Shown here: one piece after another, positions 34,001-52,000 of the stretch
How positions within the stretch are numbered: position 1 is the stretch's first letter
Layout: each line of letters starts with the position of its first letter
Source: Okamejei kenojei
Lineage: Eukaryota
NCBI GenBank assembly: GCA_035221665.1
Contig: CM069156.1
Span: 36,022,001 to 36,086,000 of the forward strand
DNA length: 64,000 nucleotides
Direction of reading: 5' to 3'
Made by a program: the position numbers

Positions 34001-37000
34001 ATTGTTAAGGGTTTGGACACGCTAGAGGCTGGAAACATGATCCCGATGTTGGGGGAGTCCAGAACCAGGGGCCACAGTTTAAGAATAAGCGGTAAGCCAT
34101 TTAGAACGGAGACGAGGAAACACTTTTTCTCACAGAGAGTTGTGAGTCTGTGGAATTCTCTGCCTCAGAGGGCGGTGGAGGCCGGTTCTCTGGATACTTT
34201 CAAGAGAGAGCTAGAAAGGGCTCTTAAAGATCGTGGAGTCAGGGGATATGGGGAGAAGGCAGGAACGGGGTACTGATTGGGGATGATCAGCCATGATCAC
34301 ATTGAATGGCAGTGCTGGCTCGAAGGGATGAATAGCCTACTCCTGCACCTATTGTCATCTGCGTGAATCTTCTCTGCATTCTTTCCAACTCAACAACATC
34401 TTTCCCCTAACATGGAGCCCAGAACAGAACACAATACTCTAAATGGGGCCTCATTAACGTCTTATACAACTGCAACATGACCTCCCAACTCTATACATTA
34501 CTCTGGCTAAAGATGCTTTTGGTTTTTTTGGGGGTTTTTTTGAACAACAGGGATGACTCCCAAGTTCATCCTCAGCAGAGAGCATAGACAAGGCTTTTGT
34601 TTTATTGTTCCATCTGAAAAACATTACCTCTGGCAGTGCAGCACTCCATCCGTACAACACTAAAATATTCACCTGGATTTTTTTCATGCAGAGGTCCCTT
34701 GACCTGAACTCACAACCTTCCGGCTGAGGGGTTAGAGCACTACCCAATGAGCCATGGCCAATACCTTTGGAAGTGGAACTTCCAGGTCTCTTCTTTAAGA
34801 AATCAAACCCCAGCCACCTCTGTGTCACACAATCCAAATACCAACCCGCAAATGCACTGAACCTTAGGAACCCTTGGAATAAAGTAGCATCCATTGGGAT
34901 CCAGGTTCAGCTTCGAAAACGGGATCAGGTTTTTTATTTTTTTAATTCCAACAAAGCAACAAATTTCTTTCCTCATCTTGGTCTAAGTACTGCAGCCAAC
35001 TAAGGCAAGAAGATAAGACACAAAATGCTGGAGTCACTCAGCGGGTCAGGCAGCATCTGGGGGAAAAGGAATAGGTGACGTCGCGGGTCGAGACCCTTCT
35101 TCACACTGAGAGACGGGGGAGAGGGAGACTGGAGATATGAAAAAGGTGCAAAGAACAAATGAATGAAAGGCTTGAAAAGAACAAATCAGGGCCGCCCGGC
35201 ACCGATGGCCAAGGAGAGGTGGAGCCCACAATGGTCCATTGTTGCCTGTGGGAGAGGTGATGGCAAAGGGATACGAACTGTGAAACGAAGCAGGATAACC
35301 GTGAAAGACAGGAAGACCTTAGACTTCAGATCAGATATTCACCATGGAAACAGGCCCTTCGGCCCACCAAGTCCGACCCGTCCATACCAGTTCTATGCCA
35401 TCCCAATTGTTGATTGGTGGCGAGTGCAGACCTGGTGGGCCGGTGCGTCTCTCTATGACTCCATGGCTAAAGCTGCTGCTTCAAAGTGCGAAGGTTGTAG
35501 GTTCAGATTCATTTCAAGACACCTTCAGTAAGAATCCTCATTAAATGCCTAGAGGTCAATATTCCTCCCCCAGCAAACAAATTACTGGATGATTTGCCGC
35601 AATGGGTCCATGTGGGTTGCTGGTGTGTCCAATCTCCACCACATTTGCCGTCAGCCACGAGTGTTAAAGAAGTTCATTGGCGGGAAGGCACTTGAACATG
35701 TTCCAAGGACACAAAGGGTTTCTGCATGAGATTAGATCCTTTCTCAGCCTCAGAAGCTGCATCCTGCCTGAAGCGCTCTTCCCTGGGCTCAGTATGGCTT
35801 CTTCTGCAGGGGAGACAAAGAAAACGCGAGTGGAAAATCCGCACCGTGGACCGGAACCCCCGCCTCGCCCGCCGCGGAGCGAGGGCACACGCAAACCCGC
35901 CTGGAGGGCCGGGAGGGAGTAAATCCACGGCCTAGACGGGGGAGTGGGCCGCTGGAGGCCCTGCAGCAGCCTGGGGCCCGGCTGGACCGGGGGCCGCTCC
36001 AAGAGGCAGAGCACGTGGACAGGACGTGGCCTACAGCAGTGGAGCAACGGTGGAGGTCATCACGGTTACGCTTAGCCAAGGCAAGGCGACCCTGCAACGT
36101 TGCTTGGTTTTTGCTCTGACATGCACTGTCAGCTGTGGGGCCTTAATATAGAGGGGTGTGACTTTCCAAATCATGTCCAATCAATTTAATTTACCACTGG
36201 TGCACTCCAATCAAGTTGTAGAAACATCGCAAGGACAATCAGTGGAAACAGAATGCACCTAAGCTCAATTTTGAGTGTCATAGCAAAGGGTCTGAATACT
36301 TATGTAAATGTGATATTTCAGTTATTTATTTTTAATTACTTTGCCAACATTTCTAATCACCTGTTTTCGCTTTTATATTATGGTGTATTGTGTGTAGATT
36401 GATGATAAAAAAAACGAATGTAATCCATTTTAAAATAAGGCTATAATGTAACAAAACGTAGAAAAAGTGAAGGGGTCTGAATACTTTCTAAATGCACTGT
36501 ACCTTTAGAAAGGAGATCAGGAGGAATTTCTTTGGTTAGATGGTGGTCAATCTGTGGAATTCATTGCCACAGACAGCTATGGAGGCCAAGTCATTGGATA
36601 TTCAGAAGGCAAAGATTGAAAGATATGTGATTAGTACGGGTGCGAGGAGTTACAGGGAGAGGCCAAGAGAATGGAGTTGAGAGGGAACGAAAGATCAGCC
36701 ATGAGGCGGAGTAGACGAGATTGGTCAAATGGCCTACTTCTGCTCCAGTGACTTAGGAATGTTTTCCTGCATGAATAAATGTAGTATTGAAACACAATAT
36801 TTCTCTCACCTTGTTTGTGTCCATAACTGCAAAGCAAAGGATACAGCATCAGTACAACTTATGTCAGCACCACCACATCACTGATTCATCATCATTGCTA
36901 GCTTCGTTCAAAACACTTTTTCAAAATGGATAAACTACAGGGCAAAATTCACACGGCTATGTGCGCAAACTCTTTTCTTCCTCTCCACTAAAGCTATAGG

Positions 37001-49000: not shown

Positions 49001-52000
49001 ACAAAAAGTTGTTTATCCAAATAAAAACCTGCTTGCTGACTTCACTTGATGAGTCAGGGTACCTTTTACTTTAAAATGAATTGCTTTCTCATCGGTATCG
49101 ATACCACCAAAGAGCAGAAACGCCTTCCTCGAGACGGTCAAGTGGTCCAACATATGAGCCCCTTCATTTTGCTTATCTTCTCGAAAGGTGCATTCCAGCT
49201 TTCTGTTTGCATCAGTGAGTCCATTGTAGGCCAGCACTGTCCCTGCAGAGGTGGAAAGTATTCAACAAAGGGAATGTTTTTTAACAACGCATTTATTTAA
49301 ACAGCGCCACTTCATTGAGAATAGATGCATTTGAACAAGATATCTATAAACAAATGTCTATACGTCTATAAACAAGAATGTAGACACAAGAATGCTGGAC
49401 TAACTCAGCGGGTCAGGCAGCATCTCTGGAGAAAAGGAAAAGGTGACGTTTCGGTTCGAGACCCTTCTTCGGACAACCCGAAAGGGTTAGGAGATGTGGG
49501 GGGCAGGTGTGTTTTACACAGAGGGTGGTGGGTGCCTGGAACGAGTTGCCGGGGTGGTGGTGAGCCGGATACTTTTGGATAGGCCCATGGGCGTGTAGAG
49601 GGTGGAGGGGCATGGATTGTGTGCAGGCAGAGTAGAGTTGGTCTTGGCATCTTGTTGGGCACAGACAGTATGGGCCGAAGGGCCTGTTCCTGTGCTGTAC
49701 TGTTGTATGCTCTATGGTCCCAAAGAAGCAGCTCACGCCCCTGCTTTGGGATATTGTTGCTGAGGTTGAATTTATAACGACTAAACTGGGCATTCGGCTT
49801 GCTGGGGGTCCAATGAGAATGGGATGTGTGGGCAGGAACTGCAGATGCTGCTTTAAGCCGAAGATAGACACAAAACGCTGGAGTAACTCGGCGGGTCAGG
49901 CAGCATCTCTGGAGACAAGGGGTGGGTGACGGGGTCGAGTGCCTTCTTCAGACACGGGCTCTAAAAGCAACACTTTGCGTGCCAAGGACACGTAGGTGGG
50001 ACAGGCCCGCGGCGCGGTGCGAATCGGGGTGGTCTTACCAGCGGAGACCATGCAGAGGAGCAGAGCCAACATGCGTGGAGATAGACCCGGAGCCGCCGGT
50101 CTCAGCCCAAGGACAGACATTTCACTTTCGATTTCTCGAATCCTACGCGGTAGCTTCCGGGATCCAGCATCTAATGTAAGGAAGATTGGTTTGGAGATTG
50201 TAACCGTGTAAGCAGGGGCAGGACAAGGGCAGGTGGGCGGAGAGGGTGGTGAGGTGAGGGGATGGGGGAGAGGGGGTGGGAGGGGATGGGGGGAGATGGG
50301 AGGGGAGAGAGGGAGGGAGATGGGGGGAGAGGGGATGGGAGGGGGAGGGATGGGGGGGATGGGGGGGAGAGGGGATGGGAGGAGAGGGGGGGGAGGGGAT
50401 GGGGGGAGAGGGATGGGGAGGAGGGGGAACGGGGAGGAGGATGGGAGGATGGATGGATGGGGGGGAGGGGATGGGGGGGAGAGGGGGGGGGGAGGGGATG
50501 GGGAGAGGGGATGGGGGAGAGGGGATGGGGAGGAGAGGGGATTTGGGGGGAGAGGGGATGGGGGGAGATGGGGGAGGGGGGAATGGGGGGGGAGTGATGA
50601 TGGGACGGGGAGGGGGGGATGAGGGGGTGGGAGAGGGGGGTAGGAGGAGATGGGGGATTGGAGGGGGGAGAGGGGATGGGGAGGGAGAGGGATGGGGGGA
50701 GAGTATGGGGGGGAAAGGGGAATGGGGAGGGAGGGGAGGGGAATTGGGGGAGAGGGGATGGGGGGAGAGGGGATATTGGGGATGATGGGGGAGGAGGGGG
50801 AAGGCGAGGGGATGGGGGGAGAGGGATGGGGGATAGGGAGGGAAGGGAGGGGATGGGTGGAGAAGGGTTGATGGGGGGAGAGGGATGGGTGGATAGAGAG
50901 GGATGGGTGAGAGGGGTGGGGAGGAGGCTGGGCGTAGGTGATGGAGGGTGGATGGGAGAGAGGGTGGGGAGGCTCACAGCGTAAGTTCAGAGGTGGATGC
51001 GTATGGGGGGAGAGGGTGATGGTAGAGATGTGGATGGGGATGGGAGGGGATGGGGAGGAGAGGAAGATGTGGGTTGGGGAGAGGGATGAGAGTAGGGGCA
51101 TAGGATGAGGATGCGGTGATTGTGCAGAGGGGAGGTCGTTGGGAGGGGATGGCGAGGAGAGGTATCATAGGGAGGAAGAGGGATTTTGGAGAGGAGTGTC
51201 GTAGCTTTTTCCCTTTGTTCTTGCTTTTCCATTTCTCTTCATGGTTTTCGCGTTTATATGGTCTAGCGTTCAGTTTTCATTTCTTCTGGGTCATTTCTTG
51301 CTTCTGGCCGCTTTTCATCTCTTATTTCTTCATTGTCTCGTTAGGGGCATTGCTTCTTTTCTTTCTGTGCAATTTCTTTTCTGTCTCTCCTCCTTTTCAT
51401 TTTTTTCTCTCTTGTAGCACGGCTTCTCGTTTTTTTCATCTCTTCATGGTCAGTTTTTCTTTTCATTTTCATCTTGCTTCTTTTATTCTCAGTTTCTTTT
51501 CTTCTCTTTAGTCTCGCTTTCCATTTATTCTCTTTTCATGCTCCTATTCTTCGTCTCAATTTTCATTTTTCTTGTGCTAGCGTTTCATTTTCTTCGGGTT
51601 GCTTTTCGTTTTACACTTTGGCATTCTCTTCGTTCCCCATTGCATTGCTTGTTTTTTTCTTTCTTTTCATTTCTTTCTATGTTCATTTGCATTTTCTTTT
51701 CTTTTGTCATTTTCTCTCTTGTCTCCTTTTCATGTCTCTTTCTTGTTAGCACTTTCATGTACTGCTTTTCATTCTTCCCCTCTATTCTTTCATTTGTCTG
51801 CTACTGTTCATTTTCATTTCGTTTTCAATTATCTTTTCATTTTCATTCTCTTCTATTTTGCTCACTTGTCTTTGCTCTTTATCATTTCTCTCTTTTCATT
51901 CTTTTCATTTGCTATCCACTTCTTCTCTATTCATTCTCCTTCTATTTTCATTTCTCTTATCATTTTCTTCTCTTATCCTATCGTTTCATGGGTCTTCTCT

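What the first reader, a model, noticed from the sequence alone, without database searches (positions are those of the whole stretch)
35789..50120. Complete tapasin-family gene with a hybrid feature set: probably the third paralog rather than tapasin or TAPBPR
Seen: 8 phase-compatible exons give a 447-aa type I membrane protein. It has only the paired N-domain cysteines (LEC, LECEI). There is no extra Cys between CEISQY and WF, the TM helix is uncharged, and the tail is HLNKVMDTNKKKPY*. Known: tapasin has Cys95 (ERp57 link), a TM lysine (TAP binding) and a di-lysine tail. Human TAPBPR has a free Cys94 (UGGT1 link) and no di-lysine motif. A third 'TAPBPL' lineage has been reported in non-mammalian jawed vertebrates. 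Inference: this is an ER-retrieved MHC class I chaperone or peptide editor that may work outside the classical peptide-loading complex. Its neighbours (RAP1GAP2-like, EXO5) match neither the MHC nor the mammalian TAPBPR locus.
Basis: partly seen in the sequence, partly recalled or inferred. Interest (0 to 1): 0.7.

Follow-up and report, generated by a model that had tools for sequence, protein, structure and literature searches.

The report
Third tapasin paralog (TAPBPL) in a ray
This is an intact gene for the little-studied third member of the tapasin family of MHC class I chaperones, here in a ray-like cartilaginous fish; it is a normal member of a lineage already reported in bony vertebrates, not a new kind of gene.

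Summary
On the minus strand, 50120 to 35789, eight GT-AG exons with compatible phases add up to 1344 coding bases, which is 447 codons plus a stop. I checked this by arithmetic and never joined the exons.

The parts are a signal peptide, a two-cysteine N-domain, an IgV domain, an IgC1 domain, an uncharged membrane helix and a tail ending KKPY.

Each of exons 2-5, placed separately in a tree, falls inside one clade. This clade is distinct from bona fide tapasin (TAPBP) and TAPBPR, with 100/100 support for all three clades. Forcing its cartilaginous-fish members together with either other clade is rejected (p-AU 0.0006).

The clade runs from chimaera, sharks and rays to coelacanth, lungfish, bichir, sturgeon and teleosts. 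It matches the TAPBPL lineage of Grimholt 2018. Its "hybrid" features are that lineage's norm: a membrane-helix lysine in 0 of 24 members and a di-lysine C-terminus in 22 of 24.

A confident model of the sawfish ortholog matches tapasin and TAPBPR structures along the whole ectodomain.

Function is unproven. The start codon is ambiguous (447 or 431 aa). The EXO5 neighbour is partly confirmed; the RAP1GAP2-like neighbour is not.

The parts
50039..50120 (-). Exon 1: start codon and signal peptide (82 nt, ends in phase 1). A second in-frame ATG lies at 50072.
   Evidence: ATG at 50120, hydrophobic MLALLLCMVSA, donor G|GTAAGA. With ATG 50072 the exon-1 part has the length seen in the Pristis ortholog.
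49063..49242 (-). Exon 2: first part of the N-terminal domain, with the first conserved cysteine (RKLEC).
   Evidence: Searches give the AG/GT borders and phase 1 to 1. It is 66% identical to Pristis P0002. Its own tree puts it beside P0001 inside the third clade. No Pfam family matches.
46172..46462 (-). Exon 3: second part of the N-terminal domain, with the second conserved cysteine (LECEISQYST...WFTV).
   Evidence: It is 86% identical to P0001 and has no Pfam or PDB sequence match on its own. It carries the lineage signature RYST.G..V.WP.
42842..43180 (-). Exon 4: IgV-like domain, with an N-glycosylation sequon (NAS) and the E/D-W-R-x-Q patch.
   Evidence: Pfam V-set E 1.2e-9. PDB matches are CD276, VTCN1 and TAPBPR. 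It is 88% identical to P0001. Tree, sequon, patch.
39367..39693 (-). Exon 5: IgC1 domain (YYPLDV, DGTF motifs).
   Evidence: Pfam C1-set E 1.6e-9. PDB matches are B7-H6, antibody constant domains and TAPBPR. It is 86% identical to P0001. Tree.
37734..37826 (-). Exon 6: connecting peptide and uncharged transmembrane helix (ILFYILILILSLFFCAIVIILLI), then HLNK.
   Evidence: It is 90% identical to P0001. No charged residue lies in the helix, as in 24 of 24 rows of the third clade.
36810..36826 (-). Exon 7: 17-nt micro-exon, (V)MDTNK.
   Evidence: acceptor TTTGCAG|, donor AAG|GTGAGA. The junction-spanning tail is conserved in P0001, P0002 and P0003.
35789..35803 (-). Coding part of exon 8: KKPY plus the TGA stop, a C-terminal KKXX motif.
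   Evidence: K(K/R)KPY ends 17 of the 18 third-clade rows that were taken without regard to their tails.
34933..34946 (-). First polyadenylation signals downstream of the stop (ATTAAA and AATAAA), implying a 3' UTR of about 0.85 kb.
   Evidence: Motif positions only; usage is not shown.
50120..50135 (-). ISRE/IRF-E-like element GAAATCGAAAGTGAAA, abutting the first ATG.
   Evidence: it is the only match to GAAANNGAAANNGAAA in 64 kb, with 0.01 expected from shuffles. Its function is inferred. Salmon TAPBPL genes are induced by interferon-gamma (PMC7573153).
50185..50189 (-). CCAAT motif about 70 nt upstream of the first ATG.
   Evidence: A five-base motif, which is weak evidence.

Best explanation
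The locus is an intact ortholog of TAPBPL, the third tapasin-family paralog after TAPBP and TAPBPR, in a ray-like elasmobranch.

It encodes a type I membrane glycoprotein with the tapasin/TAPBPR ectodomain: an N-terminal domain with one disulfide pair, fused to an IgV-like domain, followed by an IgC1 domain.

Most likely mechanism (inferred, not shown): the protein sits in the ER and is returned from the cis-Golgi by COPI through its C-terminal KKXX signal. It binds MHC class I (or class I-like) heavy chain with beta2-microglobulin, as tapasin and TAPBPR do. It does this without docking to the TAP transporter, because it lacks the basic residue in the membrane helix. It is probably induced by interferon.

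What is shown: the gene structure, the fold (by proxy of the sawfish ortholog), the phylogenetic placement and the lineage-wide motifs.

What is inferred: ER retrieval, MHC I binding, TAP independence and interferon control.

The confidence given (0.8) is for the identity as a TAPBPL ortholog with this architecture. I would put the mechanism at about 0.5.
For: Gene model.

Domains: V-set and C1-set.

Orthologs: proteins named tapasin-related protein-like or tapasin-like by their sources occur in 14 named chondrichthyan species, and also in coelacanth, lungfish, bichir, sturgeon and teleosts.

Phylogeny: three clades at 100/100 (quick tree). Each window exon sits inside the third clade beside P0001 (SH-aLRT 97-99) and inside the five-row ray set (97-100). 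AU tests reject union with TAPBP (delta lnL 54.98, p 0.00062) and with TAPBPR (p 0.00063).

The shark TAPBPR is a different gene. P0036 matches human TAPBPR at 2e-78, against 1.5e-23 for P0002.

Fold: the AlphaFold2 model of P0002 has pLDDT 89.6 and pTM 0.80. Its best PDB matches are tapasin (9rcv_B, 2.1e-27, 429 columns; 3f8u) and TAPBPR (5opi_C, 8.9e-26). Two-domain B7-H6 covers only about 219 columns.

Lineage features:
- Membrane-helix lysine: third clade 0/24, TAPBP 13/18 (arginine instead in 4 more).
- KKXX or KXKXX C-terminus: third clade 22/24, TAPBP 16/18, TAPBPR 2/14.

Link to Grimholt's TAPBPL: that paper describes no transmembrane lysine, an ER retention signal in some members, and a unique cysteine 11 residues after the C95 position. 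That cysteine is the WF(S/T)C of the bichir, sturgeon and teleost members of this clade.

MHC-contact patch of TAPBPR (E205-Q209; passages of PMC6307860): W is invariant, R is kept in 18/24 and Q in 17/24 of the third clade.

Interferon: the ISRE-like element and the interferon-gamma induction of salmon TAPBPL.
Against: No experiment on TAPBPL from any species was found (searches; passage).

Several positions whose mutation abolishes MHC I binding in human TAPBPR differ here:
- The Q272 equivalent is never Q in the third clade (0/24).
- The I261 equivalent is T in the cartilaginous fishes.
- This window has L at the Q209 equivalent, where P0001 and P0002 have Q.
- This window has G at the R335 equivalent, where 23/24 of the clade have R or K.

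By sequence alone, the Ig exons resemble B7-H3, B7-H4 and B7-H6 at least as much as TAPBPR.

The fold evidence rests on the Pristis ortholog, not on the window's own joined protein.

The group labels of the unnamed representatives were partly assigned from their tails, and the AU groups were named after the tree had been seen.
Confidence: 0.8

Rival explanations
1. It is the species' true tapasin (TAPBP), merely divergent, working inside the TAP-bound peptide-loading complex.
For: It has a di-lysine tail like TAPBP (16/18 TAPBP rows have one). It carries the sequon at the IgV position that 16/18 TAPBP rows share. NCBI names some orthologs 'tapasin-like'.
Against: Separate named TAPBP genes exist in rays, sharks and chimaera (P0195 Pristis, P0196 Mobula, P0200 Hypanus, P0204 Narcine, P0076 Callorhinchus). 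They form their own 100/100 clade.

An AU test rejects the union (p 0.00062).

The window's exons are at most 24-42% identical to TAPBP rows, against 66-90% to the third clade.

There is no basic residue in the membrane helix.

In 5 of 5 chondrichthyan species where both proteins have a contig length listed, the two lie on contigs of different length.
Confidence: 0.02
2. It is the TAPBPR ortholog, a TAP-independent editor that also leaves the ER.
For: TAPBPR is the best tapasin-family sequence match in the PDB for the Ig exons and for P0002. NCBI names many orthologs 'tapasin-related protein-like'.
Against: True TAPBPR exists in sharks (P0036, 2e-78 to human TAPBPR; P0213 Heterodontus) and forms its own 100/100 clade.

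An AU test rejects the union (p 0.00063).

The cysteine 8 residues before the conserved CE cysteine is present in 14/14 TAPBPR rows and absent here.

A KKXX tail is present here but in only 2/14 TAPBPR rows.
Confidence: 0.02
3. It belongs to the third lineage but does not chaperone classical MHC class I. It could serve another class I-like or Ig-fold client, or act as a B7-like ligand when it escapes to the cell surface.
For: MHC-contact positions are only partly kept. The Q272 equivalent is Q in 0/24 of the clade, and this window has L and G at the Q209 and R335 equivalents.

The Ig exons match B7-H3, B7-H4 and B7-H6 best in the PDB.

Human TAPBPR has itself been reported as a T-cell co-inhibitory surface molecule (PMC8103088; only the abstract in the search listing was seen).
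Against: The KKXX tail is conserved from chimaera to teleosts, which argues for ER residence.

The full tapasin-type N-domain is kept.

Grimholt 2018 states that many MHC I-interacting residues are conserved in TAPBPL.

Salmon TAPBPL is co-induced with MHC I pathway genes.
Confidence: 0.25
4. The copy in this genome is drifting towards loss of function (relaxed constraint), although its reading frame is still open.
For: It has two departures from otherwise conserved positions: L for Q at the 209 equivalent, and G where 23/24 clade members have R or K. The closest relative, P0001, has Q at the second of these.
Against: All eight exons are open with canonical splice sites. Identity to P0001 is 86-90% across exons 3-6. 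The cysteines, sequon, membrane helix and KKPY tail are all intact. The end branches in the per-exon trees are short, 0.075-0.16.
Confidence: 0.07

Closest known systems
TAPBPL (TAPBP-like) lineage of Grimholt 2018 (BMC Evol Biol 18:25, PMC5824609), reported in teleosts, gar, frog, turtle, alligator, birds and marsupials
   Same: It is a separate clade from TAPBP and TAPBPR. It has no transmembrane lysine and carries a C-terminal ER retention/retrieval signal. Identity to the other two paralogs is about 20-30%. The bichir, sturgeon and teleost members of the window's clade carry the 'unique cysteine 11 residues after C95' that the paper describes.
   Different: The window's protein, like all 10 cartilaginous-fish rows, coelacanth and lungfish, has no such cysteine (V, G or S instead). 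No cartilaginous-fish TAPBPL is reported in the passages I read, and none turned up in my searches. Veríssimo 2023 uses 'tapbpl' for the TAPBPR gene.
Tapasin (TAPBP)
   Same: It has the same fold over the whole ectodomain (9rcv_B at 2.1e-27, 3f8u). It shares the di-lysine tail, the IgV sequon and the N-domain disulfide pair.
   Different: It is a different clade. It has no Lys or Arg in the membrane helix, which 17/18 TAPBP rows have. The N-domain does not align with human tapasin by sequence: PDB matches start only at the IgV domain.
TAPBPR (human gene symbol TAPBPL)
   Same: It has the same fold (5opi_C at 8.9e-26). It lacks a transmembrane lysine. It shares the E/D-W-R-x-Q patch and the YYPLDV and DGT(Y/F) motifs.
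   Different: It is a different clade. It lacks the extra cysteine found in 14/14 TAPBPR rows. It has a KKXX tail, which 12/14 TAPBPR rows lack. The Q272 equivalent is not Q.
B7 family IgV-IgC ligands (CD276/B7-H3, VTCN1/B7-H4, NCR3LG1/B7-H6)
   Same: These are the best PDB sequence matches for the two Ig exons.
   Different: They have no N-terminal tapasin-type domain. Foldseek aligns only about 219 columns, against 405-448 for tapasin. They are surface proteins without a KKXX tail (this last point is recalled, not tested here).

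Membership tests
Tapasin superfamily (TAPBP/TAPBPR/TAPBPL) | Architecture: signal peptide, N-terminal domain, IgV-like domain, IgC1 domain, one membrane helix and a short tail, encoded by eight exons with phase-1 introns between the domains | tested here: met
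   exon map, V-set E 1.2e-9, C1-set E 1.6e-9, and a hydrophobic 23-residue helix. That eight exons is the family's usual gene structure is recalled, not tested.
Tapasin superfamily (TAPBP/TAPBPR/TAPBPL) | Tapasin-type fold of the N-terminal domain fused to the IgV-like domain | tested here: met
   Tested by proxy. The AlphaFold2 model of ortholog P0002 (pLDDT 89.6) aligns with tapasin and TAPBPR over 370-448 columns. Window exons 2 and 3 are 66% and 64% identical to P0002. The window's own joined protein was not folded.
Tapasin superfamily (TAPBP/TAPBPR/TAPBPL) | Conserved N-domain cysteine pair | tested here: met
   The second cysteine is invariant and the first nearly invariant in the 70-sequence alignment. 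Both are present in window exons 2 and 3.
TAPBPL lineage (Grimholt 2018) | Falls in the clade that excludes TAPBP and TAPBPR | tested here: met
   Searches give 100/100 support. One search places each of exons 2-5 inside it. Searches give the AU rejections.
TAPBPL lineage (Grimholt 2018) | No lysine in the membrane helix | tested here: met
   none in the window, and 0/24 in the clade.
TAPBPL lineage (Grimholt 2018) | C-terminal ER retention/retrieval signal (reported for 'some' TAPBPL) | tested here: met
   The window's tail is KKPY. In the clade, 22/24 rows have KKXX or KXKXX.
TAPBPL lineage (Grimholt 2018) | 'Unique cysteine' 11 residues after the C95 position (a reported feature; I argue it is not defining) | tested here: not met
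   the window has V (WFTV). The cysteine occurs in only 7 of 24 clade rows: bichir, sturgeon, three teleosts, and two unnamed representatives (one among the teleost rows, one among those next to lungfish). It is absent from all 10 chondrichthyan rows, coelacanth and lungfish. It therefore marks a subset of the clade, mainly ray-finned fishes, and not the clade as a whole. Membership here rests on the phylogeny.
TAPBPL lineage (Grimholt 2018) | Same clade as the accession numbers that the paper names as TAPBPL | not testable with these tools
The link rests on the described features and the taxon range.
TAPBP (tapasin proper) | Clade membership, and a basic residue in the membrane helix for TAP docking | tested here: not met
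TAPBP (tapasin proper) | Linkage to MHC class I and TAP genes | tested here: inconclusive
   No MHC, TAP or PSMB gene was seen. However, only ORFs of 55 aa or more in 1-21 kb (150 ORFs) and 12 chosen ORFs elsewhere were scanned. The stretch 21-35 kb was not scanned against Pfam.
TAPBPR | Clade membership, and an extra cysteine 8 residues before the conserved CE cysteine | tested here: not met
   (present in 14/14 TAPBPR rows, absent here).
MHC class I peptide editors (functional class) | Binds MHC class I/beta2m and catalyses peptide exchange | not testable with these tools
   No elasmobranch MHC I sequence was in hand for a complex prediction, and the job was not sent. The contact patch is only partly conserved.

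The most novel reading that the evidence does not exclude
TAPBPL is an ancestral jawed-vertebrate gene. It was already present before cartilaginous and bony fishes split, and has been kept for more than 400 million years with an almost invariant K(K/R)KPY retrieval tail and no TAP-docking residue. On this reading the first jawed vertebrates had three tapasin-type chaperones. The third is a TAP-independent editor or quality-control factor for class I or class I-like molecules that cycles between ER and Golgi and is induced by interferon. Placental mammals lost it, and it has never been studied at the bench.
Probability: 0.5. Interest if true: 0.55.

Novelty: new member of a known kind. Interest (0 to 1): 0.3.

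Why it matters
Models of MHC class I peptide loading rest on tapasin and TAPBPR. A third paralog exists in most non-placental jawed vertebrates but has no known function.

This locus and its orthologs show the third paralog in rays, sharks and chimaera, with the same tail and membrane-helix features as in bony fishes. That places its origin at or before the last common ancestor of living jawed vertebrates. It also gives a sharp, testable picture: ER retrieval without TAP docking.

The value is for comparative immunology. The gene itself is ordinary for its lineage, and automatic annotation already lists it in related species.

Tried and rejected
1. Exon 3 alone against the PDB gave only a chance hit, virginiamycin B lyase at E 0.32. 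Exons 2 and 3 have no Pfam family. The N-domain could therefore be recognised only through orthologs and the fold.

2. The representative search with a TAPBPL+TAPBPR profile returned 8725 hits at E <= 0.001. The best 150 were crowded by giant multi-Ig proteins. Only about 30 were single-stretch family members, and none carried a name.

The four unnamed rows next to lungfish (P0046, P0059, P0068, P0080) are therefore only presumed to be tetrapods.

4. RAP1GAP2-like neighbour. Pfam on 150 ORFs of 55 aa or more in 1-21 kb found only a LINE reverse transcriptase and an ALKBH8_N-like match. The serine-rich ORF at 7595-8000 (+) gave only a sub-threshold Lamprin match. The protein atlas gave no usable hit for 7664-7819. 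This neighbour is not verified. The 185 further ORFs listed (21-35 kb and 52-64 kb) were not scanned, apart from the 12.

5. The TAPBPR K22-D35 loop could not be mapped. The armadillo numbering that fits residues 205-337 does not fit the N-terminal residues.

Full report
SCOPE. I take the window for an elasmobranch contig, not a human one. The best matches of every exon are ray, sawfish and shark proteins. I left the joined step out: I did not concatenate the window's exons for any translation, search, fold or tree. Whole-length analyses used natural database orthologs instead.

OBSERVATION. The gene lies on the minus strand. Reading the sequence around each open frame gives eight exons:
- e1 50120..50039
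- e2 49242..49063
- e3 46462..46172
- e4 43180..42842
- e5 39693..39367
- e6 37826..37734
- e7 36826..36810
- e8 35803..35789, including the stop

All introns are GT-AG. Introns 1-6 are phase 1 and intron 7 is phase 0. Each split codon begins with G, so none is a stop. The lengths sum to 1344 nt, which is 447 codons plus a stop.

There is one cysteine in e2 (LEC), one in e3 (LECEI), two in each Ig exon and one in the membrane helix. There is none between CEISQY and WF. The helix ILFYILILILSLFFCAIVIILLI has no charged residue.

The weakest parts of a model built by eye are the 17-nt exon 7 and the four-codon end of exon 8. Both are vindicated by relatives. The three closest database proteins all end HL(N/S)KVMDK(N/H)KKKPY. 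One of them, P0001, is encoded on a contig of only 1874 nt, which leaves no room for introns of the size seen here. tblastn of the three proteins against the window finds a single copy with the same exon borders.

START CODON. A second in-frame ATG lies at 50072. From it, the exon-1 part would be 11 residues plus the split glycine. Pristis has 12 plus the split glycine. The protein would then be 431 aa, as in Mobula and Hemitrygon (431 aa) and close to Pristis (432 aa). The first ATG is abutted by GAAATCGAAAGTGAAA at 50120-50135. This is the only match to GAAANNGAAANNGAAA in the 64-kb window, where shuffles give 0.01. If that element is a promoter ISRE, the first ATG may lie outside the mRNA. 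The mature protein is the same either way.

WHAT THE EXONS ARE. Pfam sees a V-set domain in e4 (E 1.2e-9) and a C1-set domain in e5 (E 1.6e-9), and nothing in e2, e3 or e6. Against the PDB, e3 finds nothing real. Exon 4 finds CD276, VTCN1 and then TAPBPR at 5e-5. Exon 5 finds B7-H6, antibody constant domains and TAPBPR at 1e-6. By sequence alone, then, the Ig exons look as much like B7 proteins as like tapasin. The N-domain exons are the distinctive part.

RELATIVES. Exon 3 was searched against the large protein set for longer proteins. It gave 3 proteins at E <= 0.01 among 40 candidates:
- P0001, unnamed, 86% identical
- P0002, Pristis pectinata 'tapasin-related protein-like', 64% identical
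- P0003, Rhinoraja longicauda 'tapasin-like'

With P0002 as query, 40 proteins passed among 3175 candidates. They include proteins from 14 named chondrichthyan species (rays, sharks and the chimaera Callorhinchus), coelacanth, lungfish, bichir, sturgeon and teleosts, plus a few TAPBPR proteins at much weaker E-values.

One of the weaker hits, the Scyliorhinus protein P0036, is the true shark TAPBPR. It matches human TAPBPR chains at 2e-78 over its whole length. P0002 matches them at 1.5e-23, and matches human tapasin at 1e-8 over the Ig domains only.

A profile of three tapasin-like representatives then recovered named TAPBP proteins. These came from Callorhinchus ('Tapasin long form'), Pristis, Mobula, Hypanus, Narcine, Heptranchias, Heterodontus, Chiloscyllium, coelacanth, lungfish, newts, turtles, bichir, sturgeon and teleosts. 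Single species therefore carry all the paralogs. Heterodontus has P0007, P0186 and P0213. Pristis has P0002 and P0195.

PHYLOGENY. I built a tree of 56 database proteins, without any window sequence:
- 24 of the window's type: 18 and 6 unnamed representatives
- 18 TAPBP
- 14 TAPBPR

I left out partial or oddly long hits (P0003, P0006, P0010, P0013, P0014, P0016, P0018 and others), the remaining teleost rows, and the multi-Ig giants.

The careful tree used IQ-TREE with LG+C20+F+G4 on 484 columns. It gives each group as one side of a branch, with 100% ultrafast bootstrap and 100% SH-aLRT. The quick tree agrees.

Inside the window's clade the branching follows the species tree. Chimaera comes first, then sharks and rays, on one side. 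Coelacanth, lungfish plus four unnamed rows, bichir, sturgeon and teleosts are on the other.

Window exons 2, 3, 4 and 5 were each added as a separate fragment row and analysed on their own columns:
- Each is sister to P0001 (SH-aLRT 97, 99, 99, 97).
- Each lies inside the five-row ray set (97, 98, 98, 100).
- Each lies inside the third clade (100, 97, 91, 99).

Identity tells the same story. The best third-clade match per exon (e2 to e6) is 66, 86, 88, 86 and 90%. The maxima against TAPBP rows are 24, 26, 42, 39 and 22%. Against TAPBPR rows they are 26, 27, 29, 35 and 26%.

AU tests reject holding the ten cartilaginous-fish rows together with TAPBP (delta lnL 54.98, p 0.00062) or with TAPBPR (p 0.00063). 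The equal likelihood loss is what one expects if the forced branch shrinks to zero in both cases. The groups were named after I had seen the tree, which weakens the formal meaning of p.

IS THIS GRIMHOLT'S TAPBPL? I read passages of Grimholt 2018 (PMC5824609). It defines TAPBPL in teleosts, gar, frog, turtle, alligator, birds and marsupials. It reports about 22% identity to the other two paralogs, no transmembrane lysine, an ER retention signal in some members, and a unique cysteine 11 residues after the position of human C95.

In my alignment, the one TAPBP row with a C95-type cysteine reads C-PTGLHGP-WF. The WF(S/T)C cysteine of the bichir, sturgeon and teleost members of the window's clade is therefore exactly 11 residues on. 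Together with the taxon range, this identifies the clade as TAPBPL.

Those supplements may bear directly on this point.

The cysteine occurs in 7 of 24 rows. It is absent from all ten cartilaginous-fish rows, coelacanth and lungfish. It marks a subset of the clade, mainly ray-finned fishes, not the lineage as a whole.

THE 'HYBRID' FEATURES ARE THE LINEAGE'S NORM.
- A lysine in the core of the membrane helix: 0/24 in the third clade, 13/18 in TAPBP (arginine at that place in four more), and 3/14 in TAPBPR by a crude window.
- A KKXX or KXKXX C-terminus: 22/24, 16/18 and 2/14 respectively. Among the 18 third-clade rows taken regardless of their tails, 17 have it.
- The TAPBPR clade has an extra cysteine eight residues before the conserved CE cysteine in 14/14 rows. 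The window has none.
- A C95-type cysteine is present in only 1/18 TAPBP rows, so its absence here says nothing.
- The IgV sequon (NAS in the window) is shared by 16/24, 16/18 and 7/14 rows. Grimholt relates such a site to tapasin N233 and calreticulin.

FOLD. An AlphaFold2 model was made of P0002 with a 70-sequence family alignment. It is confident: mean pLDDT 89.6 and pTM 0.80. Foldseek against the PDB ranks tapasin first (9rcv_B at 2.1e-27 over 429 columns, and 3f8u). TAPBPR follows (7rno; 5opi_C at 8.9e-26; 5wer). Target-normalised TM-scores are 0.62-0.75. Two-domain B7-H6 aligns over only about 219 columns. The N-terminal exons, invisible to Pfam, thus encode the tapasin-type N-domain. 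This is evidence by proxy, because the window's exons 2-3 are 64-66% identical to P0002.

MHC-CONTACT POSITIONS. Passages of Ilca 2018 (PMC6307860) name four sets of TAPBPR residues whose mutation abolishes MHC I binding: E205-Q209, I261, R335 and Q336-S337. With a 20-residue offset, the armadillo TAPBPR row has E205, R207, Q209, I261, Q272 and R335-Q336-S337. This validates the mapping for that part of the protein. In the third clade:

| Position | Third clade | This window |
|---|---|---|
| 205 | E or D in 19/24 | D |
| 206 | W invariant | W |
| 207 | R in 18/24 | R |
| 209 | Q in 17/24 | L (P0001 and P0002 have Q) |
| 261 | T in the cartilaginous-fish members, I/V/L in most others | T |
| 272 | never Q | T |
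| 335 | R or K in 23/24 | G (P0001 has Q) |

The docking surface is thus partly conserved in the lineage, with two departures particular to this genome. That fits binding of a class I-like client, but it leaves room for a changed specificity.

MECHANISM PROPOSED. Shown: a type I membrane protein with the tapasin ectodomain, a lineage-wide KKXX tail and no basic residue in the helix. Inferred from established knowledge of the families:
- KKXX tails of type I membrane proteins are retrieved to the ER by COPI.
- The helix lysine of tapasin docks TAP (Grimholt's summary).
- The IgV/N-domain and IgC faces of tapasin and TAPBPR clamp the class I heavy chain.

The most likely role is therefore an ER-resident, TAP-independent class I chaperone or editor. 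Interferon control is suggested by the GAAA-repeat element. It is also suggested by the interferon-gamma induction of all three salmon TAPBPL genes, with log2 fold changes of 1.5-3.0 at 24 h (PMC7573153, table and text passages). A passage of PMC9372762 says that nothing is known about MHC interaction with TAPBPL in any non-mammalian vertebrate.

NEIGHBOURS. One ORF at 62713-63114 (minus strand) matches Pfam Exo5 (E 1.6e-6, 28.3 bits, cut-off 25). The match covers profile positions 93-147 of 367. The EXO5 neighbour is plausible but only partly seen.

I could not verify a RAP1GAP2-like gene.

In five chondrichthyan species that have both a third-clade protein and a TAPBP with a contig length listed (Pristis, Heterodontus, Heptranchias, Chiloscyllium, Narcine), the lengths differ. 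The two genes therefore lie on different contigs.

NOVELTY. The third lineage is in print (Grimholt 2018 and 2020). It is mentioned in two reviews: PMC9586880 and PMC9372762. Orthologs in related species are already listed by automatic annotation.

I found no paper describing this lineage in cartilaginous fishes. Veríssimo 2023 uses 'tapbpl' for the TAPBPR gene.

The finding is therefore a new member of a known kind. Its modest added point is that the lineage, with its tail and helix features, predates the split between cartilaginous and bony fishes.

Noticed in passing
window 50120-50135 (-): GAAATCGAAAGTGAAA is a triple-GAAA, ISRE/IRF-E-like element that ends on the A of the first ATG. It is the only such match in 64 kb, with 0.01 expected by chance. 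A CCAAT motif lies about 55 nt further upstream.
   Followed up: partly
window 50072 (-): A second in-frame ATG would give a 431-aa protein. That is the length of the Mobula and Hemitrygon orthologs, and the exon-1 part would be as short as in Pristis.
   Followed up: partly
window 42843-43178 and 39368-39691 (-): At two positions that matter for MHC I binding in human TAPBPR, this genome departs from its own clade. It has L instead of Q in the (E/D)WRxQ patch (DWRYL here). It has G where 23 of 24 relatives have R or K, in the SPHGLN stretch.
   Followed up: partly
window 62713-63114 (-): An EXO5-like ORF matches only Pfam Exo5 positions 93-147 of 367. In the ORF translation the conserved part ends at ...HHLQ followed by VSES, which I read as CAG|GTGAGT, a likely splice donor (my reading; the DNA was not printed). 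The gene would then be split by introns here, or only partly present.
   Followed up: partly
Pfam and the protein atlas gave nothing usable. It runs into a long GW/GM-coding simple repeat.
   Followed up: partly
window 12558-14976 (+): A LINE-type retroelement remnant. Pfam RVT_1 matches at E 9.2e-23 on 13860-14606, followed by an ALKBH8_N-like match on 14365-14973.
   Followed up: no
window 50143-51164, 51100-52220, 60776-61870, 7600-8670: Long low-complexity tracts read as P/S-rich, G/W/M-rich or F/L/S-rich ORFs in several frames on both strands. One begins only about 25 nt upstream of the first ATG, leaving a very short unique promoter stretch.
   Followed up: no
introns of the gene, e.g. 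37047-37487, 38642-38844, 42454-42690, 45783-46034: Repeated SINE-like units occur in both orientations. Their translations recur, for example GGAAVELLPYSGRDPGSI and QRQRPGFDP. LINE-tail-like units (…FSQRVVNLWNSLPQ…) are scattered through the window.
   Followed up: no
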